Source: a virus | Direction: 5' to 3' (one strand) | DNA length: 64,000 nucleotides | Virus record (IMG/VR): IMGVR_UViG_3300020185_000014 | Coordinates: 32,001-96,000 of that record | In this document: positions 2,948 to 43,660 of the stretch, one piece after another | Layout of the letters: every line of letters begins with the position of its first letter | Position numbering within the stretch: the first letter of the stretch is position 1 | Translations under genes and position numbers: made by a program | Notes under the pieces: model-generated | Told to the model about the DNA's origin: nothing | The model's database searches: none | The model's input: the letters and a program-made list of their open reading frames with translations, nothing else

Positions 2948-3703
2948 CTAACCCACGAAAAAATCTGGTGGAAGTTCGTGCTCGGATCTCATTTTCTCTT
3001 CGAGCGCCTGTAGTTCTTGTGATGCGTCGTCGTAATATTGCCGACCGTTAATTGTCACGCCGCCAGGAAGTTGAACGCCTTCGAATTTTAACATGTTCAT
3101 ACCCCATTGTTGTTTAATCAACGAGGTTACATAGTTCTTAATGAACATGTCGTTATATACGCTTGTGTGTTGTGTTTCGTCGACGATCGAATAAACTTCA
3201 GCGACTAGGTATGACCCCTCTCTAATATCTCCGTCGTTAAAATCGCCTTCAATATACAAACGGTTTTGTCTGCGAGAGAAATGAACTTGAGGTCGACCGT
3301 GTAGTTGTTGATCGATCAAACTAAGATACTGCCGCATCTGATAAAAATAATTCAAATCACCGGCGAAACTCATAAAGTCGCCCATGTTGTTTAGAAACAT
3401 TTGATAGCGAATGTCAAACATCCCTTGACCAGTACCGAATGATGAGGCCACCGGAAATAACGCAGAAAGGTAGACCACATCAGATGATATCGGAATGTAC
3501 TGATTAGCAACATCTTCAGCAGTCACTAAATGAGACATATAAGTTTTGATTGTTGCGTCGCTGTGAAACTCTCGGTATAACTGTAGAGCATCGTCGACTT
3601 TGTCTTCTACTTGATCGACATCGACATTTACTTCTAAGACGGGTTCACCCAACCTGCGAAGGCAATATTCAATCAATCCGTCTCGGGATGTAATAACTGC
3701 CAT
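2948..3703 (-). CDS. gp13: Neck protein
   Basis: YCLRRLGEPVLEVNV..Q, IKQQWGMN..KFEGVQLPGGVTING, C-terminal PPDFFVG. Confidence 0.95.
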   Translation of the reverse strand: MAVITSRDGLIEYCLRRLGEPVLEVNVDVDQVEDKVDDALQLYREFHSDATIKTYMSHLVTAEDVANQYIPISSDVVYLSALFPVASSFGTGQGMFDIRYQMFLNNMGDFMSFAGDLNYFYQMRQYLSLIDQQLHGRPQVHFSRRQNRLYIEGDFNDGDIREGSYLVAEVYSIVDETQHTSVYNDMFIKNYVTSLIKQQWGMNMLKFEGVQLPGGVTINGRQYYDDASQELQALEEKMRSEHELPPDFFVG

Positions 3704-3736: not shown

Positions 3737-3744
3737 TATTTATA
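3737..3744 (-). promoter_or_regulatory. T4-type late promoter TATAAATA upstream of gp13
   Basis: Exact gp55-dependent consensus in the intergenic gap. Confidence 0.85.
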
Positions 3745-3745
3745 G

Positions 3746-5041
3746 TTATCTGAACCTGTTCGCGCCGTGAATCCAAATAACTAAAGACCACCTTTCGCCG
3801 GATTCGATTTTCTTAACGCGGTGCAATGAATAACTCGGGAACATATTGATAGAACCCACCTCTCTATTACCTTCTCGTAGAACGCCGTTGTCCCAAATTT
3901 CAAGTTCTCCTCCGGTGTACCCCTCACTAAGAGGAACCGAAATAGATATTTTTCTTGTAGAACTATTTTCCGCTCCCATATCAATGTGCCAATCATAGTG
4001 CGCTTCATCTTCTGCTTGGTATTGCAACAATTGTAGAGAGTGTGTTATTCCCATCAAGTCGTATCGGTAATACTCAGCATTCGCTGTCGCGACCGCAGAT
4101 AATATTTTATCGAATATCCATTCCGTGCTATCGTTCAATATTAATTCGAATAGGTTTACCTCTCGTATGTCAGACTTGTATTCTTTGGTTGAATCTGAAC
4201 CGACTGGAGGTTTTATAGAGTAAAGGTCTTCGGCGGATTTAATTATTGCGTCGCATTCTTCTTTCGAGAATGCAAACTCTGGTCTGAATTTCGAGTTGTA
4301 AGAAAACAGTCCAGGGCATAACGAGTCGTGCGTTGTTATCATTAAACCGTTTTTAATTATTTTTGATTGCGGTAACGAATATTCTTTAACTGGATCTGCT
4401 GCAGCGGGTTCTTGCGTTTTGGTCGGAGTGTAATCAAGGACAGGTGTTTTTTTCTCTTCGATGCCCGACATCATTTCCCTTCCGTCAAATTTAAGATGTT
4501 GGTTTTCGCCGTCCGCCCTAACAAAATGAAAGAATACCTGAACCTGCCACTCGCCCTTATATTCTTCTCTCCAGTGAGGAACCTCACAACCTTTGTACAA
4601 AACTAAATCACCTTGGTTGATTGTGATTGGAGACGATTCGGATTTTCCGAAATAATTCTGCACTGACCCGAAATAGATCGGCCATACTGTGTTATCGGGA
4701 GCAAACCCTAGCGTCAGAGTTCCTGAGACTTCGCAGGAGGGGCGATCGACGTGTGGGGTAAGGGTTTCTCCGTGCCGATAAATTCTAACGTAGGTGTACG
4801 TTGGAGAGAGTATAAACCCGAGTTGCCTTGAAAGTGGGTCTGATATTTTAACAGCAATTTCATCAAATATATCACAACCATAGATTGAATCAGAAAGAGG
4901 GCACTGATCATCTTTTTGCGTTTGCCCCTGTTCGTGAAGTTCGAACACGTATTTCACTAATTCGTTACAATCGTGTTTTCCGATTACATCCGATAAGTAA
5001 ACAAAACCCTTTTCGTCGAAATGAGATCTAACCGCCACCAT
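3746..5041 (-). CDS. Tandem two-domain 2OG-Fe(II) dioxygenase
   Basis: Domain 1: RIY..L.PHVDRPSCEVS..GD..LYKG.EVPHWR. Domain 2: YDWHID..RKIS..GGEL..FPSY.LHRV..GERWSLV.W. Confidence 0.85.
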   Translation of the reverse strand: MVAVRSHFDEKGFVYLSDVIGKHDCNELVKYVFELHEQGQTQKDDQCPLSDSIYGCDIFDEIAVKISDPLSRQLGFILSPTYTYVRIYRHGETLTPHVDRPSCEVSGTLTLGFAPDNTVWPIYFGSVQNYFGKSESSPITINQGDLVLYKGCEVPHWREEYKGEWQVQVFFHFVRADGENQHLKFDGREMMSGIEEKKTPVLDYTPTKTQEPAAADPVKEYSLPQSKIIKNGLMITTHDSLCPGLFSYNSKFRPEFAFSKEECDAIIKSAEDLYSIKPPVGSDSTKEYKSDIREVNLFELILNDSTEWIFDKILSAVATANAEYYRYDLMGITHSLQLLQYQAEDEAHYDWHIDMGAENSSTRKISISVPLSEGYTGGELEIWDNGVLREGNREVGSINMFPSYSLHRVKKIESGERWSLVIWIHGANRFR

Positions 5042-5079: not shown

Positions 5080-5334
5080 TTAGGCGATGCCCTGTCCGCC
5101 TTGCCGCGTCCAAACCCCGCCCATATTTTTATAAAGACTGTTATCGCCTTTATTAAAAGCAAGCAACGACGTTGAAGGGAAATCATCGACGGAGTCGTAC
5201 GCGAGAACAAAGTTATTCGAGACTAGGGATGCTTTGATTGCCCGAATAACATCAATCGCTTCTTCCTCGGTCATCCCCGCAATCTTTTTCTGCAGTTCGG
5301 ATAGTGTGTGCGTTATGTCTATCGGCGTCGTCAT
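5080..5334 (-). CDS. Small protein consisting only of the shared N-terminal module of the array
   Basis: YDSVDDFP..LLAFNKGDNSLYKNMGGVW matches the module of its neighbours. Confidence 0.65.
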   Translation of the reverse strand: MTTPIDITHTLSELQKKIAGMTEEEAIDVIRAIKASLVSNNFVLAYDSVDDFPSTSLLAFNKGDNSLYKNMGGVWTRQGGQGIA

Positions 5335-6518
5335 TAAACTTGATGCCCAGCGTGAGTCGACTTTGATTGTGATAAATCGCCGACATCAAGAGAAGAAACG
5401 AACGGGTTTGCAAACGGAAACTTATCGACCAGATTAGATACTACCGGTTCTGAACCGCCCATCGTGTATCCAAATGTGAAAGAAGAAACCCCTGCCGCGT
5501 TCATTCTTGCCGTTCCGAGTGTTCCGATATTCGCAGATGAAATCGCATCACTCGCGAACGGAAACTTATATATTTCGTTTCTGATTGATACCGGAGAATT
5601 GATTTGTCCACCAGAAGTGAACCCCGCAACTTCAGAAGAAATTCCTGCTGCATAATTTCTGCTAACGGAGAGGTTTCCGACATGTACAGCGTCGTTGTCT
5701 GTTTGGAACGAAAACCTCTCTACTCGGTTTTGATATCCGTATGAGGGAGTATAACCGCCGGAAGAGTAACCGTGAGTCAAAGAAGAATGCCCTGCTCGCC
5801 CGTATTGGTTCGTGTATGTTGTGAGGTCCGCCGAATGAATACCAGAAGTTTCGGAAGAAAATCTAAATTTCTGAATTTCTCCTGTACCAACGCCAACCGG
5901 AAGATTACTTCTACTTGTTAGATAACCATAATGTTCAGAAGAACTCGCCGCTTGTTGAGTAATTGTTTTCGACAGATCGCCAACGATCGCGCCATCGGCA
6001 AAGGCAGCGAATGAGAACTTCTCGATAGATAATCTTCCTGGAGAACCGCCAGCAACGAAACCGTCAGACTGACTAGAATTTCCAGCAACAAAATTTCTCG
6101 CAACAGCAAGGTTGCCGATCGCCGTGGCAGTTCCTTCAGATGCAAATGGATATCGATCAATAGTCGTTAATCGATATCCTGATGCCCCGCCCGAAGTAAA
6201 TGCAAAATCATCACCTGGAAATGCTTTTCGATCTGAGTCTAAATTTATTAACAATTCCCAATCTGAACCGGTGTTGAGATATAATCCATTATTCATACCG
6301 AACGATTGGATAATTGCGGTCATACCCTCAAGGTTTGAGTCTAGGGGTAGTGCCGCGATGCTGTCATAATAATTTACAAACTCTCTTTCTTTCCACGGAG
6401 AAATTGAATTGACTGCATCGATCAACTGCAGGAGTTCTAGTGCTTCCGCAGAATCGTTTACAAAAAGATCAAACGCCGAATCTAGTTGAGTTAATATTAT
6501 ATTTTTATTAATTGCCAT
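5334..6518 (-). CDS. Shared module plus six-repeat Kelch-like beta-propeller (paralog 1)
   Basis: ~47-aa repeats G(Y/F)xxGG..I(D/E)(K/R)FxF..VGDL..AG.SS; ends GHQV. Confidence 0.75.
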   Translation of the reverse strand: MAINKNIILTQLDSAFDLFVNDSAEALELLQLIDAVNSISPWKEREFVNYYDSIAALPLDSNLEGMTAIIQSFGMNNGLYLNTGSDWELLINLDSDRKAFPGDDFAFTSGGASGYRLTTIDRYPFASEGTATAIGNLAVARNFVAGNSSQSDGFVAGGSPGRLSIEKFSFAAFADGAIVGDLSKTITQQAASSSEHYGYLTSRSNLPVGVGTGEIQKFRFSSETSGIHSADLTTYTNQYGRAGHSSLTHGYSSGGYTPSYGYQNRVERFSFQTDNDAVHVGNLSVSRNYAAGISSEVAGFTSGGQINSPVSIRNEIYKFPFASDAISSANIGTLGTARMNAAGVSSFTFGYTMGGSEPVVSNLVDKFPFANPFVSSLDVGDLSQSKSTHAGHQV

Positions 6519-6528
6519 GAAGCATCCT

Positions 6529-6819
6529 TTATGGGATTTCAGGTTCGGGTTCGGGTTCGGGTGCTATAAAATCAGTTAACGTAACTGGTTTCCAATTTTT
6601 ACCATTCGAAACGAAGATAGTTTGTGTATCTGTATCATAGTACATATGACTGAAATTTTGTAACGATGCTACCGGTAAAGTAGCGCCCGTTCCGACAACA
6701 GTATATCCATCGTTTTTGAGCAAAAGTGCTTGCAGTTTGGACAACGCGGTCGTTTCTGTTGCGGTCGATCCTACTATGGTATTTGCATTATTAACGAGAT
6801 TTGATATATTGATAAACAT
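6529..6819 (-). CDS. Module-only protein with (PE)n tail
   Basis: MFINISNL..TLP..MYYDTDTQTIFVSNGKNW; ends PEPEPEPEIP. Confidence 0.7.
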   Translation of the reverse strand: MFINISNLVNNANTIVGSTATETTALSKLQALLLKNDGYTVVGTGATLPVASLQNFSHMYYDTDTQTIFVSNGKNWKPVTLTDFIAPEPEPEPEIP

Positions 6820-8009
6820 TATACTTGATGCCCTACTGTGTTATGCCGCGACCCGACTAAATCTCCTGCAGCGGTTATTGTTACCGGCGAAGCGCTGAAT
6901 GGAAATGATTCTATTGTACTTATAGAAGGCGAGAATCCTCCAGAAATATATCCGTCGGTCCTAGAGGATTGACCAGAAACTAGTCGTTTCGCAGTCGACA
7001 AATCTCCGACATCGATAGAAGAATATGGTGAGTTGAACGAAAACCTTTCGATGTTCTGCAAAGAAAAGGCGTCAAACCCACCAGAAACATAACCATGAGT
7101 CTCGGAGGAATTTCCTGCCGCTTTTGAGTTCGCCACTGTTAAATTAGTAATATAGGCAGAAGATGTGAATGCGACGAAACTGAACCTGTCCACTGAGGTT
7201 AAGTTGATGCTGGTCGTTTCGTTAATACCGCCAGCGACATATCCGAAATCAAAATCCGAAATTCCGATTGCCTCTGACTTTCCTATCAGCGACCCCGAAA
7301 CATATAAATTTCCGTGAAGACTGGATTGTGTTTCGTTAGCAAAGGGGAATTTATATATTCTCCTCATTGCTTGTGTTAATTGCGGTTGCGAAGTAACATC
7401 GCCCCCTGCCGCGAATCCTATCGCATGTGCATTGGTTGAAAGACCTGCCGATTTCGAACGTTCGAATTCTAGATCACCGACCAACAGAGAATTGGTAGTG
7501 TTAACAAATTCGAATTTCTCAATTTCGCTAATTACTGCGCCGGTGCTAACCTTACCGCCGGTGGAATATCCTCTTAATTCTGACGACTGTCCCGCTAATT
7601 CTATTTTTCCTGCAGTCAAATCACCCAAAGTTAAAGCGTTGGTAAAACTAGAAAACGGAAACCGCTCAATCGAAGAACTGAATCCTGGGTTCAAACCGCC
7701 CGATACAAATCCGTAATCGTCTCCTTGAAAACGTCTACTCTCATCTAGTAATGCACCGAGCACGATGGGTTTCCACTTGTTTCTATGAGAAACATAGAAC
7801 GCATCCGAATCGCGATTGAATGCAATGATGCCTTCGTTCGATACTGTTGCGCTGTCGAAATCGTGTATATGTCTATATTGGACTGCGTGTGAATATGCTT
7901 TTGAAAATTTGTCGAGACTGTTTAATCTCACCTGCTCTGTCGAGTTCGCCGTTCCGCTAGCGACTCTGGCGTTTATCGTATCAAGTAAATCTTTAATATT
8001 AATTGTCAT
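6819..8009 (-). CDS. Shared module plus beta-propeller (paralog 2)
   Basis: MTINIKDL..NEGIIAF..FYVSHRNKW, then FQG and six GG repeats; ends GHQV. Confidence 0.75.
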   Translation of the reverse strand: MTINIKDLLDTINARVASGTANSTEQVRLNSLDKFSKAYSHAVQYRHIHDFDSATVSNEGIIAFNRDSDAFYVSHRNKWKPIVLGALLDESRRFQGDDYGFVSGGLNPGFSSSIERFPFSSFTNALTLGDLTAGKIELAGQSSELRGYSTGGKVSTGAVISEIEKFEFVNTTNSLLVGDLEFERSKSAGLSTNAHAIGFAAGGDVTSQPQLTQAMRRIYKFPFANETQSSLHGNLYVSGSLIGKSEAIGISDFDFGYVAGGINETTSINLTSVDRFSFVAFTSSAYITNLTVANSKAAGNSSETHGYVSGGFDAFSLQNIERFSFNSPYSSIDVGDLSTAKRLVSGQSSRTDGYISGGFSPSISTIESFPFSASPVTITAAGDLVGSRHNTVGHQV

Positions 8010-8016
8010 AACACGC

Positions 8017-9171
8017 TCAGTACTGCTGGGAAGAACCCTTGTTCTTTTCTATTGATAAATCACCTACATCGATCGAAGTTCCGTCAGTGTAGAAAGAGAA
8101 TTTCTGTATGACTTTCGAACGACTCGCCTCGCCGCCGCCGGCAATAAACCCTCTTTCTGTTGACGACGTTCCCCCAGAGAAATTTTCTGTTTGTATTGTT
8201 AAATCACCAACATCAGAAGCATTAACGTCCGAAGAGAACGGAAACTTATCAACAATATTGTTATTTATTAGGTCAGTATAAACGTTGTATCCATAACCTT
8301 GCATTGAAGATAACCCAGCGCCGTTATTTGAAGCACTAGAAAGGTTTGCTGAGTTAACGGCATTTGCTACAGATGCGGTGAATGTTACTTTATCGATTAC
8401 GTTATTACTCGCCCCGTCACCGCCGGTGAAATATGCAGAGGTGTTAGAAGAACTTCCCGCAGAACCTGTTTTCATGGCAGTTAAATCGCCAACATCGAGC
8501 GCATCAACCTCGCTGATAAAAGAAAACCTATCAAGAACGTCACTATTAGCAGGAGTGGAACCACCTGCAGTGTAACCAAACCCATACGACGCAGAGGAGG
8601 CACCGCCCGCAGAAGAACGCGCGGTTGTTAAATTAGCAACTGATTCAAGCACCGCAGGAGAAGCAAATGAAAACTTTTCAATGGTCGATAATAATCCAGC
8701 ATCCAAACCGCCAGAACTATATCCATCTGTCTTTGACGATTGTCCTGCTGAACTCATTCGTCCGGCGAATAATTGCGCGCCATGACTGATCGAATTACCG
8801 TCAGTGACAAAGGAAAATCGATCAATGTTATTGGTTAACGACCCGACATTACCGCCGGAATAGAACCCCGCGATTTCTCCTTGGAATATATCTTGTTGGT
8901 TCCCGAGTCTACGATAACCATCCGAATCTCTCATGTAGAGCGTTTTACTATGAACGTCAAAAAATATTCTCGCTCTTCCAGATTCTATATCGGGGTCATC
9001 TCCGGCGCTTAATGGGAATGTTGATGAATGGTTATAACTTGATAGTGATGATATGCTAGCATCTGAAACAAGTTCGGACAAATAACGTAACGACTGTGTT
9101 GATGTATCGGAATCACTTTCGATGCACTGCTGTTGTAAATTAACAATAAACCCTGTAATGTTAGTAATCAT
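8017..9171 (-). CDS. Shared module plus beta-propeller (paralog 3)
   Basis: FQGEIAGFYSGG, then six repeats IDRFSF / IEKFSF..DVGDL. Confidence 0.75.
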   Translation of the reverse strand: MITNITGFIVNLQQQCIESDSDTSTQSLRYLSELVSDASISSLSSYNHSSTFPLSAGDDPDIESGRARIFFDVHSKTLYMRDSDGYRRLGNQQDIFQGEIAGFYSGGNVGSLTNNIDRFSFVTDGNSISHGAQLFAGRMSSAGQSSKTDGYSSGGLDAGLLSTIEKFSFASPAVLESVANLTTARSSAGGASSASYGFGYTAGGSTPANSDVLDRFSFISEVDALDVGDLTAMKTGSAGSSSNTSAYFTGGDGASNNVIDKVTFTASVANAVNSANLSSASNNGAGLSSMQGYGYNVYTDLINNNIVDKFPFSSDVNASDVGDLTIQTENFSGGTSSTERGFIAGGGEASRSKVIQKFSFYTDGTSIDVGDLSIEKNKGSSQQY

Positions 9172-9172
9172 G

Positions 9173-9535
9173 TCAACTCTCTAGTATTGTCAATTCGACC
9201 CACTTAAACCCTTTCGACACATAAAACATCAGATCTGCCTCAGAATAAACGATGCATCCGATGTTCTCGAAAGTTGGTGTTGGGAACGTTGATTGAGATT
9301 GATGAGTGACTGCAGTTTCAAGTGCGGATAGTCTTCGCTGCCTGAGTTTGTGAAGTTGCATAATATCATCCGCTGGACCCGATCCAACATTTTGGTATGT
9401 TTCGAGAATTGCAGTCAGTATTAATAACGTTTCTCGGTGATGTTCAAACACAGCATTGTCGCTCGCCGCTTGCAACGATAGACGCTGGTACGCGGCGAGA
9501 GCAACTATTTGTAGTTTTTCGAGATTCAGGATCAT
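9173..9535 (-). CDS. Module-only protein
   Basis: FPTP..NIGCIVYSEADLMFYVSKGFKW. Confidence 0.65.
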   Translation of the reverse strand: MILNLEKLQIVALAAYQRLSLQAASDNAVFEHHRETLLILTAILETYQNVGSGPADDIMQLHKLRQRRLSALETAVTHQSQSTFPTPTFENIGCIVYSEADLMFYVSKGFKWVELTILES

Positions 9536-10698
9536 TAATTTTGATGCCCTGTTGAAGCATATTTTGCGGCAGTTAGTGATCCCACGTCGCTCGCGTCACC
9601 ATCCGACGCGAAGGGAAAACTCTCAATATTGTCCGTTGATGTTGTTGTAAAACCGCCAGCAACCCATCCACTCACGTTAGAAGATTGTCCCGCAGATTCT
9701 CTCTTCGCGGACGCGAGATTTCCAACGGTAGTAAATGTTGAAGAACCGGAAAATGGAAACTTTTCGATGCTCGATATATTGGATCCAGATAACCCGCCGC
9801 TAACGTATCCGTGGGTTGTAGAAGATTGTCCAGTAGTGAAGGATCTTGATGCGTTCAGGTCACCCACGCCGGTCGTAGCAAAAGAGAACCAGAACGGAAA
9901 TTTATCAACGGCAGTTGTGTTGCTCGCGCCGATTCTTCCTCCGCTTCGATACCCATCATATTCTGAAGTTTGTCCTGCGGTCGCCGCAACGTTTTCGGTT
10001 AACGCGCCGACTTCTGTAGCATCAGTTCCTGCAGAAAAAGAAAATTTGTCAATGGCATCAGTAAACCCTGCCCCTATATTTCCGCCCGCAACATACCCAT
10101 GCCCCTTACCCATGTCCGTCTGACCGGAAACTTCAGATCTACTCGAAACGAGGTTAGAAACATCGGTAGCAACGAACGGCGAGTTGTAAGAAAACTTTTC
10201 TATTTTATCCGTCGGTCCTGGTTGCCCGCCGGCAACAAACCCGAACCCATTAACTCGATCAGACATTCCAGCACTTTTTGAACGCGTGGAAGATAAATTA
10301 ACAACGGATGCCGAATTTGATCCTGAGGGAAAATCGAATGATACAACCAACCTCGATTGAGACGCATCTCCGGATGAATATCCTTTCAGCGTGCCTTGAA
10401 ACGGCGTGATTGCTGGAAATTGATTGACGAAATTAGATTCATCTAGGGGAATACTGTTCCAATCGAAATTATGAGAAACTTTCCATGTATCCAGCGTTTC
10501 GTCATATATCATATTGCCGAAAGTTTTTTCTTCTGGGAGTGGTATACTATAGTTATGGTATGAAAAGAAATTCTGTAGATTCCTAATCAATTCAGTTCCT
10601 CGGGTTAAACGTCCGAGTTCTACGTTTGTATCCGCGCTGTCGGCGAGATCGATCTTTTCTTGTAGTTTAAAGATTATGTTTTCAATATTAATTGCCAT
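9535..10698 (-). CDS. Shared module plus beta-propeller (paralog 4); start revised to MAINIEN
   Basis: ATG at 10698 aligns with paralog N-termini; six GG repeats; ends GHQN. Confidence 0.75.
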   Translation of the reverse strand: MAINIENIIFKLQEKIDLADSADTNVELGRLTRGTELIRNLQNFFSYHNYSIPLPEEKTFGNMIYDETLDTWKVSHNFDWNSIPLDESNFVNQFPAITPFQGTLKGYSSGDASQSRLVVSFDFPSGSNSASVVNLSSTRSKSAGMSDRVNGFGFVAGGQPGPTDKIEKFSYNSPFVATDVSNLVSSRSEVSGQTDMGKGHGYVAGGNIGAGFTDAIDKFSFSAGTDATEVGALTENVAATAGQTSEYDGYRSGGRIGASNTTAVDKFPFWFSFATTGVGDLNASRSFTTGQSSTTHGYVSGGLSGSNISSIEKFPFSGSSTFTTVGNLASAKRESAGQSSNVSGWVAGGFTTTSTDNIESFPFASDGDASDVGSLTAAKYASTGHQN

Positions 10699-10700
10699 GG

Positions 10701-11273
10701 TTATACAACCTTCCAATTGTTTAATTCTCTATTTCTTAACATCAACTTGCTGGCATGTGTATCGAAAAGAATATTAACACTACTGTCTAACGCGGTCAAT
10801 ACCTCTGCAGAATCTACAAGTCTCGTGTGAATCAATCCCGAAGACTGCCGCTCGCACATATTGAATATATCGGTTAAGTCAAACGGATGTGAATTGCTAT
10901 CTAGTGCGTATATGTTATTATTAGTGGTCTGTAGTGCCGTGGTTAAATCGTATAGATCATCGCTTGGATATGTCCAAGCAGAATCATCATTTAAATTCAT
11001 CAACAGATTCCACGAAGATCCGTTGCTGAGATATATCTCATTATCCAAACCTGTATTCGTACCGCGAAAACTGATCGCTGATCCTTTGTTTGAGGAATCT
11101 GCAGGAAACGGAAATCCAGATCCGGTTCGCGTATATTCTGAACTTAAATAATAATTCTTGGTTCCATAAAAGTTCGCCGCACGTTCCAATACTAGAATAT
11201 CAGTGGTCGGCGTCAACTCATCAATATCAGATATTGCTATCGTTAAAACGCTTTTAAGATTATCGATATTCAT
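10701..11273 (-). CDS. Protein with one full and one degenerate copy of the shared module
   Basis: FPADSSNKGSAISF..IYLSNGSSW, then ..ILFDTHASKLMLRN..NW. Confidence 0.65.
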   Translation of the reverse strand: MNIDNLKSVLTIAISDIDELTPTTDILVLERAANFYGTKNYYLSSEYTRTGSGFPFPADSSNKGSAISFRGTNTGLDNEIYLSNGSSWNLLMNLNDDSAWTYPSDDLYDLTTALQTTNNNIYALDSNSHPFDLTDIFNMCERQSSGLIHTRLVDSAEVLTALDSSVNILFDTHASKLMLRNRELNNWKVV

Positions 11274-12418
11274 CAGTGTTGCGCTCCGGCAGATCCATGT
11301 TTCGATGCAGTTAGATTAGCAACTGAAATACCAGTTAGTCCGGACTGGAATGAATACTTCTCAGTAGATGCAGTTAACCCGCCAGATGGCGATGTATTAC
11401 CTCCGGCAACATAACCATGTTGTTTCGAAGACGCTCCAGTACCAGAAGATAGTAACCTATTAATAGACAAGTTTCCAATATCTGATATCTCTACCGGTGA
11501 ATTTGAAAACGCATACTTGTAAACGTTGTCAGATCCTAACGGAGAAAGTCCGCCAGAAACATATCCATGAGTTAATGATGAGTTGCCTGCTGCTTGAGTG
11601 ACTGGCGATGGCAACCCTCCAACAGTAGTCGCGTTCGCGTTTGACGCAAATGAAAATTGTTCTAAACGTGTTCCGTAGTTGACATATCCTTTGCTGCCCG
11701 TAGTGTCTGAAGAACCTGCGCCGAATTCGCAACCAGAGGTCAATCCACCCCACGCAGCGCCTGAAGTAGAAGAGGCGAAATTAAATTTCTCTACCCTAGT
11801 TACAGCGTTCTGCCCGCCCATTGTATACCCTGCGGCATTGATTACATCAGATGCCCCTGCGACTCTGCCCTTGGGTTCGGTTAGACTCCCTGCGGTGGTT
11901 GCGCTATTCGATGACGTGAATGAGAATTTTTGAATAGCATCGGTGCCGGCACCGCCGCTGACATATCCGTCTTCGTTTGTAGTGTCTGAATGTCCAGCAA
12001 GATGATTCGCTGCCGTGGATAAACTTCCTACATTGACGCCGTTGTTATCGCTAGAGAATGAATATTTCTCAACAACATCATTGGCGATTGGACCGCCGCC
12101 CATGGCGAAACCATATTTCGTACCCTGGAACGCAGGTGCGGCCACGTGTTTTAGGAGCGGTTTCCAATACCTTTTGTCAGAAAAAAATAAATTCTTTTCA
12201 TCTTTAACGTATGCAATCTGTTCTGGGTCAGTTACGTCGTCGAGTAAATTCGGCAACGCTCCTGCCGAATCATACATATGAATCGGATTGCCGTCGCCGC
12301 GAATAGCAATTTTAAGGAGATAAATCAAATCTTGCGAATGCGAACTGGCAGTCGATTCGTTAATTTGCTTTTGCGATATCTTTAATATATTTTTAATATT
12401 AAATGGAGTATTCGGCAT
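11273..12418 (-). CDS. Shared module plus beta-propeller (paralog 5)
   Basis: YDSAGALP..IAYVKDEKNLFFSDKRYW, FQG, six countable repeats; ends GAQH. Confidence 0.75.
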   Translation of the reverse strand: MPNTPFNIKNILKISQKQINESTASSHSQDLIYLLKIAIRGDGNPIHMYDSAGALPNLLDDVTDPEQIAYVKDEKNLFFSDKRYWKPLLKHVAAPAFQGTKYGFAMGGGPIANDVVEKYSFSSDNNGVNVGSLSTAANHLAGHSDTTNEDGYVSGGAGTDAIQKFSFTSSNSATTAGSLTEPKGRVAGASDVINAAGYTMGGQNAVTRVEKFNFASSTSGAAWGGLTSGCEFGAGSSDTTGSKGYVNYGTRLEQFSFASNANATTVGGLPSPVTQAAGNSSLTHGYVSGGLSPLGSDNVYKYAFSNSPVEISDIGNLSINRLLSSGTGASSKQHGYVAGGNTSPSGGLTASTEKYSFQSGLTGISVANLTASKHGSAGAQH

Positions 12419-12426
12419 TTTAGTTC

Positions 12427-12726
12427 CTATTCGTTAAGGTCGAATGCGATATTCCAAAAATCGCCACTGCATACATAAAGAAAATTTCCGGAACTAACGT
12501 CATCTGTTTTCGTAACAGCGAGCATACCTTTTAGATTGTCATGGGGGACGGGCAACGCTTCAAAGTTCTCATAGACCCTTCCGATATCAATTTTATTATA
12601 TTCGCTATCTCTTAAATCTTGAATCGCTTCCCATGAAACCAAAAGATCTAACGGGGATTGCGCTATCCCGATATTACCTGCGCGAGCAGACATTACTGCT
12701 GATAAATTTTGTGTGTTAATTTTCAT
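12427..12726 (-). CDS. Module-only protein
   Basis: MKINTQNL..YENFEALP..NLKGMLAV..LYVCSGDFW. Confidence 0.7.
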   Translation of the reverse strand: MKINTQNLSAVMSARAGNIGIAQSPLDLLVSWEAIQDLRDSEYNKIDIGRVYENFEALPVPHDNLKGMLAVTKTDDVSSGNFLYVCSGDFWNIAFDLNE

Positions 12727-13106
12727 AACAACGCCGGCACGAATAATTGGACATACCTAGAATTTAGAGGGAATGGTGTTGGTTCTTCTCTCGTTCCGAT
12801 ATCCTCAAAAATTTTAACCCAAGCAGATCCAGTACACAACCATAATTCCATGGTGGAATTGTATCGATATAATACTGAACTGGCGTTTAATAATGATTCG
12901 AAATACACGGTGGCGACCATGCCTTGCAACGGAAGTTCAGCAGTCGGTAAATCTGCAGAACTATCGTAATATATCCGCGCAACCTTTTTCTTAGTGGATT
13001 CGTTTACAATCTGAAGAAAATGCTGTACCGGATCAGTTTCCGAAATAGCATTCGCTTGCGTTTGTATTAAATCTCTAGTGGCGAGTGCCGCTCTACTTAA
13101 TGTCAT
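12723..13106 (-). CDS. Module-only protein
   Basis: YYDSSADLP..LQGMVATV..LWLCTGSAW. Confidence 0.7.
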   Translation of the reverse strand: MTLSRAALATRDLIQTQANAISETDPVQHFLQIVNESTKKKVARIYYDSSADLPTAELPLQGMVATVYFESLLNASSVLYRYNSTMELWLCTGSAWVKIFEDIGTREEPTPFPLNSRYVQLFVPALL

Positions 13107-14019
13107 TTTCCTTTACCGTCTTGGCAACTGTTCCAGAATACGAGATAAACTCTTTCGCTTCTGATTTAAACCCCATCAGACCCATACGGATTTGATCTAC
13201 GTGCAATACATCTATCAATTCAGCGACGACAGATTCAACGAATCCGTGAAGACCGACCGTCGTCCAATCTGAACTTGCTTCTTCTTCAGTGACATAATGT
13301 CTAATCCTTGCTTGCATTTTAGTTGGATTAACTCCAATCTGCTCAAGGTATTCTTGTTCGCCTTTTGTTATATGTCCCTGTTGCCTAACATCTCGAATAC
13401 ATTGTACTACACTTCTTTTTAAGTGGGACTTCGATTCTTCTTTTTCGAAATCTTGCTCAGTAAACCCATCAAACTTCTGTTTCATTTCTTCATAGAGTTC
13501 GTTTAGAGCAAGAACATCTTTCATCGCGCCTTCAATATATGTCATTCCAGAAGCGTTCTTTTCTTTTCTTTCTGCGATATTAAGTTTCAAATCTATTTCT
13601 TTCCAATAGTCTAATGAACCTGATTCTATTTTTTCTTGCATCTTTTTTATCGCAACTTCATTTTTAACTTGACGCCATTTCGCTTCATCTAGAGCCATTT
13701 TCTTTCGACTCATTTCTGCAGCAATCTGCCGCACATTTTTATAATCGCTATGGTAAGAAAGATTAATATGTCGCCAATCCCACTGCGAGTGGGATCGGTT
13801 CCATAAATTCTGCAACTCGTTGGTATTCTCTAATGCCGCATCGACCATTTGAGCATTTTCGGCGAGCGTCTTTCCTCCGAAACTTTTAGTTGCTGCGAGT
13901 TGCCCCTTTCCAAATACCATAGAAACGGGCACGTGCATTTCATTTTTGTCTTCGACGATTGTTACGTCTTTAACAATTTCTTCATATGTCCCAGGAAGTT
14001 TCACCTTACTCATTAACAA
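13093..14019 (-). CDS. Uncharacterised coiled-coil-rich protein heading the late array operon
   Basis: 308-aa helical, E/K-rich ORF with GGAG RBS directly behind a late promoter. Confidence 0.75.
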   Translation of the reverse strand: MLMSKVKLPGTYEEIVKDVTIVEDKNEMHVPVSMVFGKGQLAATKSFGGKTLAENAQMVDAALENTNELQNLWNRSHSQWDWRHINLSYHSDYKNVRQIAAEMSRKKMALDEAKWRQVKNEVAIKKMQEKIESGSLDYWKEIDLKLNIAERKEKNASGMTYIEGAMKDVLALNELYEEMKQKFDGFTEQDFEKEESKSHLKRSVVQCIRDVRQQGHITKGEQEYLEQIGVNPTKMQARIRHYVTEEEASSDWTTVGLHGFVESVVAELIDVLHVDQIRMGLMGFKSEAKEFISYSGTVAKTVKENDIK

Positions 14020-14046
14020 TCTCCATTAAATAATATCATCATTCAA

Positions 14047-14054
14047 TATTTATA
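14047..14054 (-). promoter_or_regulatory. T4-type late promoter TATAAATA for the 14019-3746 operon
   Basis: Exact consensus; downstream genes abut or overlap. Confidence 0.85.
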
Positions 14055-14065
14055 CTCCCAAATCA

Positions 14066-15697
14066 CTATACTGCTTTGGTAGATATGTTCAATACCGTAT
14101 CAGAATTGATTGGACTGTATAGATATTTTCCTGCACCCCCGAGCAAAGAGCGATAGTTCGCTGGATCGTGCGACGGTTCTGATATCTCGCCGTTAATAGC
14201 ATTATTCATAATCCACGCTTTCGCTTGCTCCGGAGTTGCTTGTGGATTGATTTGTAACATCATAGCAAGGACGCCCGCGACTTGCGGAGCCGCTTGACTG
14301 GTACCGGAGTAGACCCCAGACTTGAATGTCGTATTTGGCGGATATGGCCAAGCATTGATATTATTGCTCGCAAACCCTGCGGCAATTTTAGTGCCAGGAG
14401 CATATATGTCCACACCTGGACCAGTTTCGGAACTTTCGTTTTTCTGTTCTTTATTATTGCTTTTATCGACATCACGGTCAATATTACCAACGACAATAAC
14501 TTTGCTAAGAGTTTCTTTTTGCGATGTTGTAGTGCCGAGTGCTGCACCGCCTGGACCCTTTCCGCGGTTGTAAAAATAAGTTACACCGCTGACGACTACA
14601 GAGTTATCGTGATCCTGTCCGCCATCGAGATCGACTTTAAACGACCTGTTACCAGCGCTGGTGATATAGTGGATACCGTCATCAATAGCGTCTTCAATCT
14701 CCGCTTGAACGGCACTCGAAAAACTGTTAAACCTACGGTTCGTCGTTGCCCCTTGTGCAAAAGGATCTACAAACCCAAGCGCCGCGCGTTTTGCTTGTGT
14801 GTTGATCGCTGTGCCGGTGTATGTTGATCCTCGGTATGTGATTGAAGTGACATCTGAAAAATTGTATGATCTTGAATAAGACCAACTTGCATTAACAACG
14901 GTCGGGCGTTTTACACCGAGATTCGCGTCAACAGATTTATTATTATGCCATGCCCGAAGTAGTTGGAAAGAAACCAACGGGTCAATTTTCCATGAGGAAG
15001 TGATGTTAGTTAGATCGTAAATTGCTGCATTCTTCGCCCATCCATACTGTTTTCCGGCGACAATACTAGCGCAATGCGTACCGTGATTGTCTAATCTGGT
15101 GGCGCTGTAGTAATTACTAGGGAGCGATCCTGAGACTCCTGGAGTAGAATACCAGTCGTATTCTACAACTCGACTATTACCGTCGGCGTCGTTGAATTCG
15201 GGGTGGGTTAAGTGTACTCCAGTATCTTGAATCACTACGTCAACACCAGTTCCATCTAAGACATAACGATGATTGTCGTCGCTGGGTAAAATTCCATTAG
15301 CGCCATTGGGTCCCAAATCATCCCCATGCCAATTCGGCCATAATGCATTGTCTTTCTCAACAACGCGACGAAGACCCCAGTTGGTGTAATCCGCAAACCC
15401 TGGAACAACAAATTTGTCGAACCTGCCTGTTTGGATAATATCGGGTTCGATCATTAAAGTTTCGTCATCGTCAAAGGGTAACTCGATCGCAACAACGCGA
15501 GAGTCTAACCTTAATAACGCTGCTTCTTCATCCGATAACATATAGACTGTATTTCTTCTAGATAAAGGCATCGCGTCAGCAACATCTATGGGTCTAGCGG
15601 GTATGGTTTCAGAACCAAATGCACTGACCATTTCTTGATTAAATTGCCCAACATCAATACCCTTTACGAGAGTTACAATATATTGTTTTTCCGACAT
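14066..15697 (-). CDS. Subtilisin-family (S8) serine protease with N-terminal propeptide-like region
   Basis: Triad motifs VDVVIQDTG, HGTHCASIVAG, SGTSQAAPQVAG; oxyanion SAGN. Confidence 0.92.
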   Translation of the reverse strand: MSEKQYIVTLVKGIDVGQFNQEMVSAFGSETIPARPIDVADAMPLSRRNTVYMLSDEEAALLRLDSRVVAIELPFDDDETLMIEPDIIQTGRFDKFVVPGFADYTNWGLRRVVEKDNALWPNWHGDDLGPNGANGILPSDDNHRYVLDGTGVDVVIQDTGVHLTHPEFNDADGNSRVVEYDWYSTPGVSGSLPSNYYSATRLDNHGTHCASIVAGKQYGWAKNAAIYDLTNITSSWKIDPLVSFQLLRAWHNNKSVDANLGVKRPTVVNASWSYSRSYNFSDVTSITYRGSTYTGTAINTQAKRAALGFVDPFAQGATTNRRFNSFSSAVQAEIEDAIDDGIHYITSAGNRSFKVDLDGGQDHDNSVVVSGVTYFYNRGKGPGGAALGTTTSQKETLSKVIVVGNIDRDVDKSNNKEQKNESSETGPGVDIYAPGTKIAAGFASNNINAWPYPPNTTFKSGVYSGTSQAAPQVAGVLAMMLQINPQATPEQAKAWIMNNAINGEISEPSHDPANYRSLLGGAGKYLYSPINSDTVLNISTKAV

Positions 15698-23744: not shown

Positions 23745-25688
23745 TCAAAGTTTCTTGTTGATTTCGTGTATTGCTGATTGATTTCTAATACCGATGTTTT
23801 TAGCATTAGTGACCAGAGATTTTAACTCTTTGATTTCTTGTCTCAGTTTAGCGATCTCGTCAAGGTCGACCGCGGATGGCGTTTCTTGTACAGTATTAGT
23901 TACACTCGTCAATTTAGTTCCGCCCTGTTCTAGAACATCAATCCGACTTGAGAGTTTCTTCGCCTCTTCTGCGCTCGCAGATAGAACGGTCAGTTCTTTG
24001 ATCGCTTCGACTAAGACCGGAATCACCCCTTCGTATTTGACGGCAAGTTTTCCGTCGGTCGGACGTTTAACCACAATGTCCGGAATGACTTTAATAACTT
24101 GTTGAGCGAGTAACCCGATGTCGTGCCGTCTAACATAATATCCATCAATCCCGCCGCGCTGGTGTATAACTTCCTCGGTCCAGTCGAAAGAAATGCCGTC
24201 GAGTTGCCTAATGACTTCGAGGGGGTTCGGTATTCTTCTAATGTTTTCTTTCATCGTTATATCAGAAGATGAATATGCAACCACGTTCGAGGCAGACCTA
24301 ATCTCTCCAGATGCAACTATAGTTCCACCCGTACCCTGCGTTGTAATTGAACCAGTGATTTGAATATTACCATCACCGGTGATGTCGTTAGAATTTACAT
24401 CCAATCCACCGCCTAACTGTGGTGTTGTATCCTCAACAACACTAGCGATACCGGAGCTCGTATTGCCGACCAGATCAGCGCTATTCAACCATTCGCCGTT
24501 CGAATATTTCAAAACTTGACCGTCGGACGGATTCGTGATAGTAACGTCACCGATATTTTCTAGATTGTCAATAACTGCATCGGGCACAGATGTTAAGTAA
24601 TTCTGATTGGCGACCCATGTTGTTGTAGCATAAGATGCAAGATCGGTTGCTATTAGGTAATTCTGCTCGCCAACCCATGTTTCGGTCGCGTATCCGCTAG
24701 GAATACTGGTTAAGTAATTTTGCTCGCCGACCCATGTTTCGGTCGCGTATCCGCTAGGAATACTGGTTAAGTAATTTTGCTCGCCGACCCATGTTTCGGT
24801 TGCATAATCCTGATCAATTACCCAATTTTGCAAAGAATCTAATCCATCGGATAATGAGGTGAGTGCCGCGCTCGGGTCAAAATTACCAGCGTGGTAAATT
24901 ACGTTTTCAGTTATGCCATCAATCGTATGTACGAATCCATTGGCGTCCGGCGTCCAAATCGCAACCTTATCCGCAACATCATTCTCTGCCTTGATATACA
25001 ACCTCAGATCTTCGCTTCCTGGATTTAAAACATCAGCATAAATCCATAAACGATCTCCGCCGCCGGTATCAAAATCATTTAATCCGAACTGCACTCCATT
25101 ATCAGAACCATGAGGAACCTGTATTCTACGATCCGCCCTAAGTTTAGGAATAGCATCTTCGGTGACCAGCGACAACCCAAGACTAGCGGAATCAATATAA
25201 TTTTTATCCAGGACCCATGTTTCGGTTGCTACGCTTGAATAGAAACTAGGATCATCCCCAATCGCCGCAGCAATTTCGTTTAACGTGTCTAGAGTTTCAG
25301 GTGCACCGTCAATCAGATTAGATATTTGAGTCGCTACATAAGTTTCTGTGGCAAAGGTGCTCGAGAAAACAATCTGAGATTCGGCGATGGAAAGATCACT
25401 TTGAAACTGGGTTATATCCGCCGCTAAGAGCCCCGTAGTGTTCCACAGGGCGGTGTTGATATCATACCTAATGAATTGCCCGTCCAGTGGAGTTTCTGCT
25501 TGGACGTCCTGCAGTTCCATCAGGAGAGGCAAATTACCGCCGAGATTAATTTCATTAATCGCCGAAACCAGATCGCTATTCGCAGAGGTTGTTAAACTAA
25601 CCAAGTCACCTTGGTATGCAGCGACTTGGTTAAACTTGATTCGCCAAGAGTTGATTGTGTCTGTTAATTGTGCTGCAACTATTGCCAT
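23745..25688 (-). CDS. Tail fibre/whisker protein with C-terminal intramolecular chaperone (peptidase S74)
   Basis: SSDITMKENI..L.GISFDW..IGLLAQQV..P.IV..VKYEG..LVEAIKEL; LIDGAPETLDTLNEIAAAI; YATETWV repeats. Confidence 0.85.
   Translation of the reverse strand: MAIVAAQLTDTINSWRIKFNQVAAYQGDLVSLTTSANSDLVSAINEINLGGNLPLLMELQDVQAETPLDGQFIRYDINTALWNTTGLLAADITQFQSDLSIAESQIVFSSTFATETYVATQISNLIDGAPETLDTLNEIAAAIGDDPSFYSSVATETWVLDKNYIDSASLGLSLVTEDAIPKLRADRRIQVPHGSDNGVQFGLNDFDTGGGDRLWIYADVLNPGSEDLRLYIKAENDVADKVAIWTPDANGFVHTIDGITENVIYHAGNFDPSAALTSLSDGLDSLQNWVIDQDYATETWVGEQNYLTSIPSGYATETWVGEQNYLTSIPSGYATETWVGEQNYLIATDLASYATTTWVANQNYLTSVPDAVIDNLENIGDVTITNPSDGQVLKYSNGEWLNSADLVGNTSSGIASVVEDTTPQLGGGLDVNSNDITGDGNIQITGSITTQGTGGTIVASGEIRSASNVVAYSSSDITMKENIRRIPNPLEVIRQLDGISFDWTEEVIHQRGGIDGYYVRRHDIGLLAQQVIKVIPDIVVKRPTDGKLAVKYEGVIPVLVEAIKELTVLSASAEEAKKLSSRIDVLEQGGTKLTSVTNTVQETPSAVDLDEIAKLRQEIKELKSLVTNAKNIGIRNQSAIHEINKKL
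24657..24800. repeat. 57-bp in-frame tandem repeat (~2.5 copies) encoding YATETWVGEQNYLTSIPSG
   Basis: tgctcgcc recurs at 24664, 24721 and 24778. Confidence 0.9.
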
Positions 25689-43657: not shown

Positions 43658-43660
43658 ATA
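43653..43660 (+). promoter_or_regulatory. T4-type late promoter TATAAATA upstream of gp2
   Basis: Exact consensus overlapping the gp4 stop. Confidence 0.8.

What the first reader, a model, noticed from the sequence alone, without database searches (positions are those of the whole stretch)
5080..14054. Eleven consecutive genes share one ~80-aa module: a modular multi-headed appendage system?
Seen: every gene from 13106 to 5080 carries the same divergent module: M-x-(I/L)NI-x-N helix, second helix, Y-x-S-x-x-x-(L/F)P, G-x-hydrophobic, LY(V/L)-S-x-G-x-x-W. Five continue through FQG/FPG into six ~47-aa Gly-Gly Kelch-like repeats and end in G-x-Q-x-like termini. Six are headless, one with a second degenerate copy, giving ~12 modules. 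Headed and headless genes largely alternate, abut, and follow one late promoter and a 308-aa coiled-coil gene. Known: this is the slot beside gp13 where T4 encodes wac fibritin. Inference: the module hetero-oligomerises on the coiled-coil scaffold, with headless subunits as spacers, displaying five diverged propeller (lectin/receptor-binding) heads. I know of no characterised system like this.
Basis: partly seen in the sequence, partly recalled or inferred. Interest (0 to 1): 0.85.

Follow-up and report, generated by a model that had tools for sequence, protein, structure and literature searches.

The report
Phage gene array: shared anchor, propeller heads
An uncultured marine T4-like phage carries eleven back-to-back late genes that all start with the same ~90-residue domain, five ending in Kelch-type propeller "heads" and six with no head at all. 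They are most likely a fast-evolving set of small virion appendage or adhesin proteins, but the proposed hetero-complex on the neighbouring 308-aa protein is not supported.

Summary
A profile built only from non-window sequences hits all 11 genes (E 1e-9 to 4e-22; next best window ORF 0.012). It also finds the second copy in the 190-aa gene (iE 1.3e-5), which gives 12 modules. The five heads are six-bladed Kelch-type propellers (AF2 pLDDT 87; TM about 0.9 to KLHL12/KEAP1).

One T4-type late promoter (14047-14054) precedes the 308-aa gene and the array. T4-homologous gp13, gp14 and gp15 follow.

- **The module elsewhere.** It heads 500-1300-aa fibre-like proteins in other phages, one with an S74 fibre chaperone domain. 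Its C-terminal half recurs as a tandem hairpin repeat.
- **Related contigs.** The slot between p308 and gp13 holds 0-12 propeller genes, with at least three interchangeable N-terminal adaptor types.
- **Headless genes.** They arose at least three times, keep their order in relatives, and are under purifying selection (pN about 0.2, pS about 0.65).
- **p308.** It is a highly conserved helical-hairpin protein that occurs without any array. Its tree does not track adaptor type.

Best reading: a paralogous family of anchor-plus-head virion appendage proteins, with anchor-only members. Hetero-oligomerisation on p308 is untested and not favoured. No isolated phage carries the module or p308. I rate it a new variant of a known kind, interest about 0.6.

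The parts
14047..14054 (-). T4-type late promoter TATAAATA ahead of the operon
   Evidence: sequence read. The next TATAAATA on this strand is at 3737-3744.
13093..14013 (-). p308 (306 aa from ATG 14013): a conserved all-helical protein with a long antiparallel helical hairpin (residues 87-183). Function unknown; core gene of this phage clade.
12723..13106 (-). Headless module gene, 127 aa
   Evidence: external profile E 8.5e-10; orthologue at 52% identity in the same position in L082/L084
12427..12726 (-). Headless module gene, 99 aa
   Evidence: E 7.5e-14; orthologues at 72% identity with pN 0.21, pS 0.65
11273..12418 (-). Headed gene, 381 aa: module plus six-bladed propeller
   Evidence: E 4.1e-22; repeats; orthologue in L083
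10701..11273 (-). Headless gene, 190 aa, with two tandem module copies (residues 2-94 and 109-188)
   Evidence: iE 6.7e-10 and 1.3e-5; orthologue at 57% identity in L083
9535..10698 (-). Headed gene, 387 aa from ATG 10698 (the ORF is listed from TTG 10716)
   Evidence: phrog_19111
9173..9535 (-). Headless module gene, 120 aa, with an extended helical part
   Evidence: E 1.4e-9
8017..9171 (-). Headed gene, 384 aa
6819..8009 (-). Headed gene, 396 aa. Modelled: module residues 1-93, Kelch-type propeller residues 94-396.
6529..6819 (-). Headless module gene, 96 aa, with a PEPEPEPEIP tail
   Evidence: E 2.1e-17
5334..6518 (-). Headed gene, 394 aa
5080..5334 (-). Headless module gene, 84 aa
   Evidence: E 1.3e-12
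3746..5041 (-). Two-domain 2OG-Fe(II) oxygenase, last gene of the operon; syntenic with p308 in most related contigs
2948..3703 (-). gp13 neck protein (context), with its own late promoter at 3737-3744

Best explanation
The array encodes a fast-evolving paralogous family of small virion appendage proteins, each built as anchor plus optional head.

**The anchor.** It is the ~90-aa N-terminal module. It has a conserved extreme N-terminus (M-x-I-N-I), two helices, and one copy of a widespread beta-hairpin unit (Y-x-S-x-x-x-LP ... G ... LY-V-S-x-G-x-x-W).

**The heads.** Five genes append a six-bladed Kelch-type propeller that probably binds a host-surface ligand.

**The anchor-only genes.** Six genes encode the anchor alone and are kept by selection.

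**Proposed mechanism (inferred).** Each paralogue docks through the common module at the same class of site on the particle. That site could be the neck or collar, as for T4 fibritin, or the baseplate or tail periphery. The module probably sits in a three-fold (fibre-like) context. A virion would then display several different propeller heads. Anchor-only proteins would occupy or cap sites, or set the number and spacing of heads.

**Shown here:** the shared module, the propeller fold, the late operon, the synteny, the fibre-protein context of the module, and purifying selection on the headless genes.

**Inferred, not shown:** virion incorporation, oligomeric state, docking site, and ligand.
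For: - **Module is real and specific:**
- **Kelch-type propeller:** pLDDT 87; Foldseek E about 1e-20 and TMt about 0.9 to KLHL12/KEAP1. Phage virion proteins with the same fold exist, for example PhiPA3, Noxifer, Phabio and CBB (PMC5259590).
- **Late operon inside the structural block,** between the baseplate/fibre genes and gp13-15.
- **Module profile against 1.84 billion proteins:** 443 hits. The whole module sits at residue 1 of proteins of 84-130 aa, 340-460 aa and 500-1300 aa. The long ones continue through Gly/Ser linkers into fibre-like sequence, and one ends in Peptidase_S74, a fibre chaperone domain.
- **C-terminal half as a repeat:** it recurs as a 4-15x tandem repeat in long proteins, one of which also carries Pfam Phage_fiber_rpt. 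Some are signal-peptide-bearing, probably cellular, proteins.
- **Related contigs:** the slot between p308 and gp13 holds arrays of 0-12 propeller genes. Adaptors are interchangeable (this module, an Mtd_N type, a short MVYKISDT type and others) and are mostly uniform within an array. This is the usual pattern of anchor/head mosaicism in receptor-binding proteins.
- **Evolutionary rate:** array proteins evolve much faster than p308 (52-73% against 87% identity in the same relatives), yet pN is far below pS.
- **Headless genes:** they keep their position and length in relatives and show pN 0.17-0.21 against pS about 0.65.
Against: - There is no direct evidence that any of these proteins is in the virion. 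No isolated phage carries the module or p308, and only S-SKS1 and one SAG-derived virus carry the propeller family.
- Oligomeric state was not predicted; only monomer models were possible.
- The module part of the model is of middling confidence (pLDDT 51-90).
- Similarity of the hairpin to the T4 foldon, Mtd_N, Collagen_trimer and DUF2793 is at motif level only (E 0.005-0.2).
- The hairpin repeat also occurs in secreted, probably cellular, proteins with signal peptides, so it is not a fibre-only motif.
- The role of the anchor-only proteins is a guess.
Confidence: 0.55

Rival explanations
1. Modules of different paralogues hetero-oligomerise on the 308-aa coiled-coil scaffold, headless subunits act as spacers, and the result is one multi-headed appendage.
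For: - The genes are co-transcribed, abut, and directly follow p308.
- The headless-headless-headed-headless order is conserved in relatives.
- The window has 12 modules and the 155-kb relative G001 has 12 module genes.
- p308 has a long helical hairpin.
Against: - p308 is found in many contigs with no propeller or module genes within 10 kb (L049, L052, L076, L079 and others).
- Module-type arrays fall in at least two separate p308 clades, and identical p308 proteins neighbour mixed adaptor types.
- Propeller arrays exist in S-SKS1 without p308.
- The headed:headless ratio varies (5:6, 10:2, 7:2, and at least 8:1 in the end-truncated G002 array) and module counts range from 9 to 12.
- Modules within one genome are only 14-23% identical, which fits separate homo-oligomers better than one shared hetero-interface.
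Confidence: 0.12
2. Hoc-like decoration. The proteins coat the capsid or tail as non-essential adhesins that bind particles, mucus or cell surfaces non-specifically, rather than acting as receptor-binding proteins at a defined neck or baseplate site.
For: - Copy number varies between relatives from 0 to 12, which suggests dispensability.
- The Kelch-domain protein CBB_552 is part of the mature CBB virion, a phage with whisker-like structures along its tail; the paper does not show that CBB_552 forms those whiskers (PMC5259590).
Against: - The module also heads long fibre-type proteins, including one with an S74 chaperone domain.
- The genomic slot is that of the T4 baseplate-fibre and whisker genes.
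- Nothing tested here separates this reading from the best explanation apart from location on the particle.
Confidence: 0.15
3. The headless genes are assembly factors or chaperones for the adjacent headed genes, as tail-fibre assembly proteins follow fibre genes, and are not virion components.
For: Small genes are interleaved with large ones and translationally coupled. They are conserved under purifying selection.
Against: - They are homologous to the N-terminal domain of their supposed clients, not to any known chaperone family; there were no Pfam or PHROG hits.
- Relatives have 7-10 headed genes with only 1-2 headless.
- Headless forms arose repeatedly from headed ones.
Confidence: 0.1
4. 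The proteins are non-structural late proteins that act inside the cell, with Kelch domains serving as protein-protein interaction modules as in poxviruses.
For: Kelch domains are classically intracellular adaptors. There is no virion evidence.
Against: - A late promoter inside the structural block.
- The fibre context of the module.
- Phage Kelch proteins annotated or detected as virion proteins.
Confidence: 0.06

Closest known systems
Multi-RBP phages with shared N-terminal anchors (e.g. CBA120 TSP1-4, Klebsiella phage PhiK64-1; from my own knowledge, not tested here)
   Same: Several paralogous host-binding proteins are encoded side by side. They have a conserved N-terminal attachment region and divergent C-terminal heads, and heads and anchors are exchanged in a mosaic fashion between phages.
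   Different: Here the heads are Kelch-type propellers, not beta-helix depolymerases. The anchor is an undescribed ~90-aa domain. There are up to 12 paralogues, and a conserved class of anchor-only paralogues exists.
T4 fibritin (wac) collar and whisker protein
   Same: Same genomic slot upstream of gp13 and late expression. The module ends in a hairpin whose motif (Y-V-S-x-x-G-x-W-x-x-L) resembles the foldon AYVRKDGEWV.
   Different: There is no significant sequence similarity (module HMM against wac: E 0.01-0.04 at Z=1; no foldon chain in the PDB profile search at E<=10). There is no long segmented coiled coil. The hairpin sits in the middle of the protein, with a propeller after it, rather than at the C-terminus.
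Kelch-domain virion proteins of jumbo phages (CBB_552, PhiPA3, Noxifer, Phabio)
   Same: Six-bladed Kelch-type propeller in phage structural proteins, sometimes in small gene clusters.
   Different: Only 10-17% identity. The N-terminal parts differ. No array of 5-12 paralogues with a common anchor has been described for them.
Synechococcus phage S-SKS1 propeller gene cluster (phrog_19111)
   Same: Same propeller sequence family (27-40% identity), also clustered in about 5-6 adjacent ORFs.
   Different: The S-SKS1 genes lack the module and the phage lacks p308. All of them are annotated as hypothetical.
Bordetella phage BPP-1 Mtd N-terminal domain (Pfam Mtd_N)
   Same: Mtd_N replaces the module at the N-terminus of homologous propellers in related arrays. 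hhalign aligns the module hairpin with the Mtd_N hairpin in the expected register.
   Different: The profile-profile P-value is 0.06, which is not significant. The module has two extra helices and a different N-terminus.

Membership tests
Kelch-type six-bladed beta-propeller (fold) | Six blades of four antiparallel strands closing into a ring | tested here: met
   The AF2 model has 24 strands in residues 99-395, with pLDDT above 90 over most of the head. Foldseek gives E 1e-19 to 3e-20 and TMt 0.88-0.94 to the KLHL12, KLHL3 and KEAP1 Kelch domains.
Pfam Kelch_1 (sequence family) | Score at or above the Pfam gathering threshold (20.1 bits) | tested here: not met
   The best score is 15.4 bits (E 0.014) on the 396-aa protein. 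The other four headed proteins give no hit. All five headed proteins instead match phrog_19111, of unknown function, at E 1e-7 to 3e-19.
T4 fibritin (wac) | Gene immediately upstream of gp13 in the late structural block | tested here: met
   The array lies upstream of gp13, separated from it by one oxygenase gene. The T4 order is 12-wac-13-14.
T4 fibritin (wac) | C-terminal foldon (Pfam Fibritin_C) and a long trimeric coiled coil | tested here: inconclusive
   - Module HMM against T4 and CC31 wac gives E 0.01-0.04 at Z=1, and the CC31 alignment falls on the foldon hairpin.
- Fibritin_C hits at E 0.11-1 appear only on tandem-repeat relatives.
- The PDB profile search at E<=10 returned no foldon chain.
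- The module has only two short helices.
Pfam Mtd_N / Collagen_trimer / DUF2793 hairpin domains | Significant profile match to the family model | tested here: inconclusive
   - Collagen_trimer: E 0.0047 and 17.4 bits against a 23.8-bit cutoff, on one of 11 modules.
- hhalign against Mtd_N-type N-termini: P 0.061.
- DUF2793: 3.6e-5 and 24 bits against a 27-bit cutoff, only on a tandem-repeat relative.
Multi-RBP anchor/head systems | Several paralogues in one genome with a conserved N-terminal region and divergent C-terminal binding domains | tested here: met
   (shared module; heads 28-31% identical). Adaptors are swapped between related arrays.
Multi-RBP anchor/head systems | Proteins are present on the virion and bind host receptors | not testable with these tools
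   The phage is uncultured (IMG/VR contig) and no proteomic or structural data were available.
Tail-fibre assembly chaperones (for the headless genes) | Match to a known chaperone family (Tfa, gp38, gp57-like) | tested here: inconclusive
   No Pfam or PHROG hit at E<=0.1-1 for the five headless proteins scanned; the 84-aa one was scanned against PHROGs only. They are homologous to the N-termini of the headed proteins instead.

The most novel reading that the evidence does not exclude
The module is a promiscuous oligomerisation domain. Headed and anchor-only paralogues co-assemble combinatorially into appendages that carry one to three heads, possibly different ones. A dozen genes would then generate a much larger repertoire of binding valencies and specificities on one virion. 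This would be a new way for a phage to diversify host recognition. The selected retention of anchor-only genes would be explained by their role as valency setters.
Probability: 0.1. Interest if true: 0.85.

Novelty: new variant of a known kind. Interest (0 to 1): 0.6.

Why it matters
These genes belong to an abundant marine T4-like phage clade with no cultured member. In metagenomes p308 has more than 800 homologues and the propeller family at least 178.

The region between p308 and gp13 is evidently this clade's hot spot for host-interaction diversity. It holds 0-12 propeller genes, with swappable N-terminal adaptors and rapid sequence change.

Defining the module gives a handle for finding the appendage proteins of uncultured marine phages. 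It also supplies candidate anchor and head boundaries for binding studies.

The conserved anchor-only paralogues are an unexplained feature. They could reveal how phages regulate the occupancy or valency of their adhesin sites.

Tried and rejected
The 121-156-kb contigs that hold the closest orthologues (P0003, P0005) could not be fetched.
- **Megablast of the region against isolated phages:** no match.
- **tblastn against isolated phages:** no match for a module-headed long fibre protein (P0139) or for p308.
- **The search for related loci with the single headed protein:** nothing. The 15-sequence alignment was too divergent to search with.
- **Idea that the 308-aa protein is gp13 or a fibritin homologue:** rejected. 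gp13 is at 2948-3703, and the p308 profile scores about 0 bits on T4 wac.
- **p308 fold:** no PDB sequence hit. Foldseek found nothing at E<=0.001. VIA-align returned only generic helical-hairpin matches at Z about 10, which is below the level that means anything for long helices.
- **Foldon and Mtd_N homology of the module hairpin:** could not be established.
- **ESM Atlas:** no usable lead for p308 or the module.
- **Phage C48C1,** the closest isolate by gp14 at 47% identity, has an ordinary tail-fibre gene in this slot and no array.
- **Literature searches:** no description of this array was found.
- **Window-only leave-one-out test:** it did not support the second module copy. The external profile did.
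Full report
**What the window is.** The window is bases 32001-96000 of a 116-kb IMG/VR viral contig, estimated 71% complete. PHROG and Pfam scans identify a T4-like structural block on the minus strand:
- the baseplate genes gp48, gp53, gp5, gp6 and gp8, at 31-43 kb;
- a fibre protein with an S74 chaperone domain (23745-25688);
- large unknown proteins, and an S8 peptidase (14066-15697);
- then the region of the finding;
- a two-domain 2OG-Fe(II) oxygenase (3746-5041);
- gp13 (2948-3703), gp14 (2062-2946) and gp15 (1358-2062).

Window gp13 matches T4 gp13 at E 2.5e-25. The nearest isolate by gp14 is phage C48C1 (Kyanoviridae) at 47% identity, followed by cyanomyophages at about 41%. The host is unknown.

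**Checking the observation.**

The gene set is as described. Eleven minus-strand genes run from 13106 to 5080 with gaps of -16 to +10 nt. In order, with H marking a headed gene, their lengths are 127, 99, 381H, 190, 393H (more likely 387 aa from ATG 10698), 120, 384H, 396H, 96, 394H and 84 aa.

The shared module is statistically solid.
- Pairwise BLAST among the N-termini gives a connected network of weak, in-register matches.
- Leave-one-out HMMs made from the window alone recover 10 of 11 at E <= 1e-3 and the 99-aa gene at E 0.029, with Z equal to the 263 window ORFs.
- The stronger test used 104 non-window sequences, each less than 60% identical to any window module. That profile hits all 11 genes at E 1e-9 to 4e-22, while the best unrelated ORF in six frames scores 0.012.
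- The same profile detects a second module at residues 109-188 of the 190-aa protein (iE 1.3e-5).

The heads are propellers.
- Each headed gene has six I-[ED]-K-F-x-F repeats 46-55 aa apart and ends in G-x-Q-x.
- An AF2 model of the 396-aa protein, built on 107 sequences, has mean pLDDT 87 and shows 24 strands in six blades.
- Foldseek places it with the Kelch domains of KLHL12, KLHL3 and KEAP1 at E about 1e-20 and TMt about 0.9.
- By sequence it stays below the Pfam Kelch_1 threshold (15.4 against 20.1 bits). It belongs to phrog_19111, which has no known function.

The promoter claim also holds. TATAAATA occurs at 14047-14054 ahead of the 308-aa gene and next at 3737-3744 ahead of gp13. The 308-aa gene, the array and the oxygenase therefore look like one late operon. 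Several of the genes have Shine-Dalgarno-like sequences, and others overlap the preceding stop codon.

**What the module is.**

Its consensus has three parts: a conserved extreme N-terminus (MAINI-x-N-L), two helices, and then Y-D-S-x-x-x-LP-x-A-D-S-x-N-E-G-x-I-A-Y-V ... L-Y-V-S-x-G-x-K-W-x-x-L. In the model this is H5-18, H23-38 and four short strands, at pLDDT 51-90.

A profile search of 1.84 billion representative proteins found 443 hits, in two classes.
- *Whole module at residue 1.* These proteins fall into three size groups: 84-130 aa (headless), 340-460 aa (propeller-headed), and 500-1300 aa. The long ones continue through Gly/Ser linkers into fibre-like sequence. One ends in Peptidase_S74, the intramolecular chaperone domain of trimeric fibres and spikes.
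- *C-terminal half only.* This half is repeated 4-15 times in tandem inside long proteins. Some also carry Pfam Phage_fiber_rpt, and some are secreted proteins with signal peptides.

These tandem relatives give sub-threshold Pfam hits to DUF2793, Collagen_trimer, Mtd_N and the foldon part of Fibritin_C. One window module hits Collagen_trimer at E 0.005. The module profile weakly hits the unresolved shaft of the cyanophage P-SCSP1u fibre gp28 (E 0.23; PMC10575957).

I tested the foldon resemblance directly. The module HMM against T4 and CC31 fibritin gives E 0.01-0.04 at Z=1, with the CC31 alignment falling on the foldon hairpin. hhalign against Mtd_N-type N-termini aligns the hairpins in register, but at P 0.06. 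The hairpin half is therefore a member of a diffuse class of short hairpin motifs found in fibres. Homology to the foldon is not established.

**What the relatives show.**

The propeller family has at least 178 metagenomic homologues. Among isolated phages it appears only in S-SKS1, as a cluster of about 5-6 ORFs without the module, and in one SAG-derived marine virus.

p308 behaves quite differently. It has 819 homologues at 57-87% identity, no hit in any isolated phage, and 75 related viral loci.

Mapping module, propeller, p308, oxygenase and neck genes on those loci shows a recurrent block: p308, then 0-12 propeller genes, then the oxygenase, then gp13-gp14-gp15.
- Module-type arrays occur in the window and in L005, L006, L007, L033, L041 and L042.
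- The 155-kb contig G001 has 12 module genes (10 headed, 2 headless), and G003 has 9.
- Other arrays use a short MVYKISDT-type N-terminus (8-9 genes in L018-20 and L071) or an Mtd_N N-terminus (L012, L017). Many other short adaptors exist.
- All of these proteins keep the C-terminal G-x-Q-x strand.
- Many loci have p308 but no propeller gene within 10 kb.
- In some loci p308 directly precedes gp13, and in others it lies between gp13 and gp14.

**The headless genes are real genes.**
- In a module tree they are scattered, and well-supported branches force at least three gains or losses. One headed/headless sister pair has 100/99 support. Head loss, or gain, is therefore recurrent.
- An orthologous headless pair (L005/L007) has pN 0.17 against pS 0.67, lower than for headed pairs.
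- Metagenome contigs L082-L084 have p308 at 87% identity to the window. They keep the order p308, 127x, 99x, 381H, 190x, with orthologues at 52%, 72%, 65-72% and 57% identity. For the 99-aa gene pN is 0.21 against pS 0.65.
- Synonymous sites are saturated, so the ratios are rough. The excess of synonymous change and the conserved lengths still show purifying selection.
- The array proteins diverge far faster than p308 in the same genomes.

**p308.** The AF2 model (47 sequences, pLDDT 77) is all-helical. It has a long antiparallel hairpin at residues 87-183 and a better-defined helical C-terminal domain. Foldseek and VIA-align return only generic helical-hairpin matches, and there is no PDB sequence hit. 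It is unrelated to T4 fibritin.

On a p308 tree, module-type arrays fall in at least two separate clades, interleaved with other adaptor types. Identical p308 proteins neighbour mixed adaptor types. p308 is thus a conserved, neck-adjacent core gene of unknown role, not a partner specific to the module.

**Interpretation.** The best-supported reading is an anchor-plus-head family of small virion appendage proteins. The module is the common attachment domain, probably working in a three-fold fibre-like context. The propellers are diversified binding heads, and the anchor-only members are kept by selection.

Virion incorporation, oligomeric state, attachment site and ligand are all inferred.
- p308 occurs independently of the arrays;
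- p308 phylogeny does not co-segregate with adaptor type;
- the ratio of headed to headless genes varies between relatives;
- modules within one genome are only 14-23% identical.

That model is not excluded, because no multimer prediction could be run.

**Novelty.** Kelch-type propellers in phage virions are known but uncharacterised (PMC5259590). Arrays of receptor-binding paralogues with a shared N-terminal anchor are a known design. Four things are new here:
- the module itself, which has no Pfam or PHROG family;
- the scale of the arrays, at 9-12 paralogues;
- the interchangeable adaptors across an abundant uncultured clade;
- the conserved anchor-only paralogues.

I rate it a new variant of a known kind, with interest 0.6.

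Noticed in passing
window 3746-5041 (-); related loci L008-L079: A two-domain 2OG-Fe(II) oxygenase is the last gene of the operon. It is syntenic with p308 and the propeller arrays in most related contigs, sometimes split into two genes. It may modify the neighbouring structural proteins.
   Followed up: partly
related loci L012, L019, L071; alignment A4: In relatives, every propeller blade carries the consensus S-D-x-N-A-T-D-V-G-D-L. D-x-N-x-T is the extended bacterial N-glycosylation sequon, and it could also be an Asn/Asp hydroxylation site. The motif is degenerate in the window's own five propellers.
   Followed up: no
window 13093-14013 (-): p308 has many invariant polar and aromatic residues (W71, N72, H75, W80, H82, E161-D166, R200, R207, D208, E219-Y222). 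That is unusual for a mere coiled-coil strut. In L029, L030 and L036 it sits between gp13 and gp14.
   Followed up: partly
window 14066-15697 (-): A 543-aa subtilisin-like S8 peptidase (Pfam E 1e-28, phrog_9158) is encoded just upstream of the late promoter, inside the structural block. Sullivan et al. 2010 (PMC3037559) noted S8 peptidases and a Kelch-repeat protein in cyanophages P-HM1 and P-HM2.
   Followed up: no
proteins P0121 and P0125: The hairpin half of the module (LP-x-x-G-x-x-G-D-x-F-Y-N-T ... LYVYNG-x-x-W) is repeated 8-12 times in proteins that have N-terminal signal peptides. These look cellular and Bacteroidota-like, so the motif is shared between phage fibres and bacterial surface proteins.
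   Followed up: no
window, all TATAAATA sites: Seven of the eight TATAAATA matches are on the minus strand, and the eighth (43653-43660) is on the plus strand. Most sit just upstream of genes in the structural block (3737, 14047, 21396, 33041, 35351, 43131, 43653, 52102). This is consistent with T4-type late promoters that define the operons.
   Followed up: partly
N-termini of propeller homologues: Very different adaptor types all begin with an alternating hydrophobic pentapeptide (MAINI, MTIRI, MVYKI, MAFQI, MAQIKI). This suggests a common N-terminal beta-strand docking element across adaptors.
   Followed up: no
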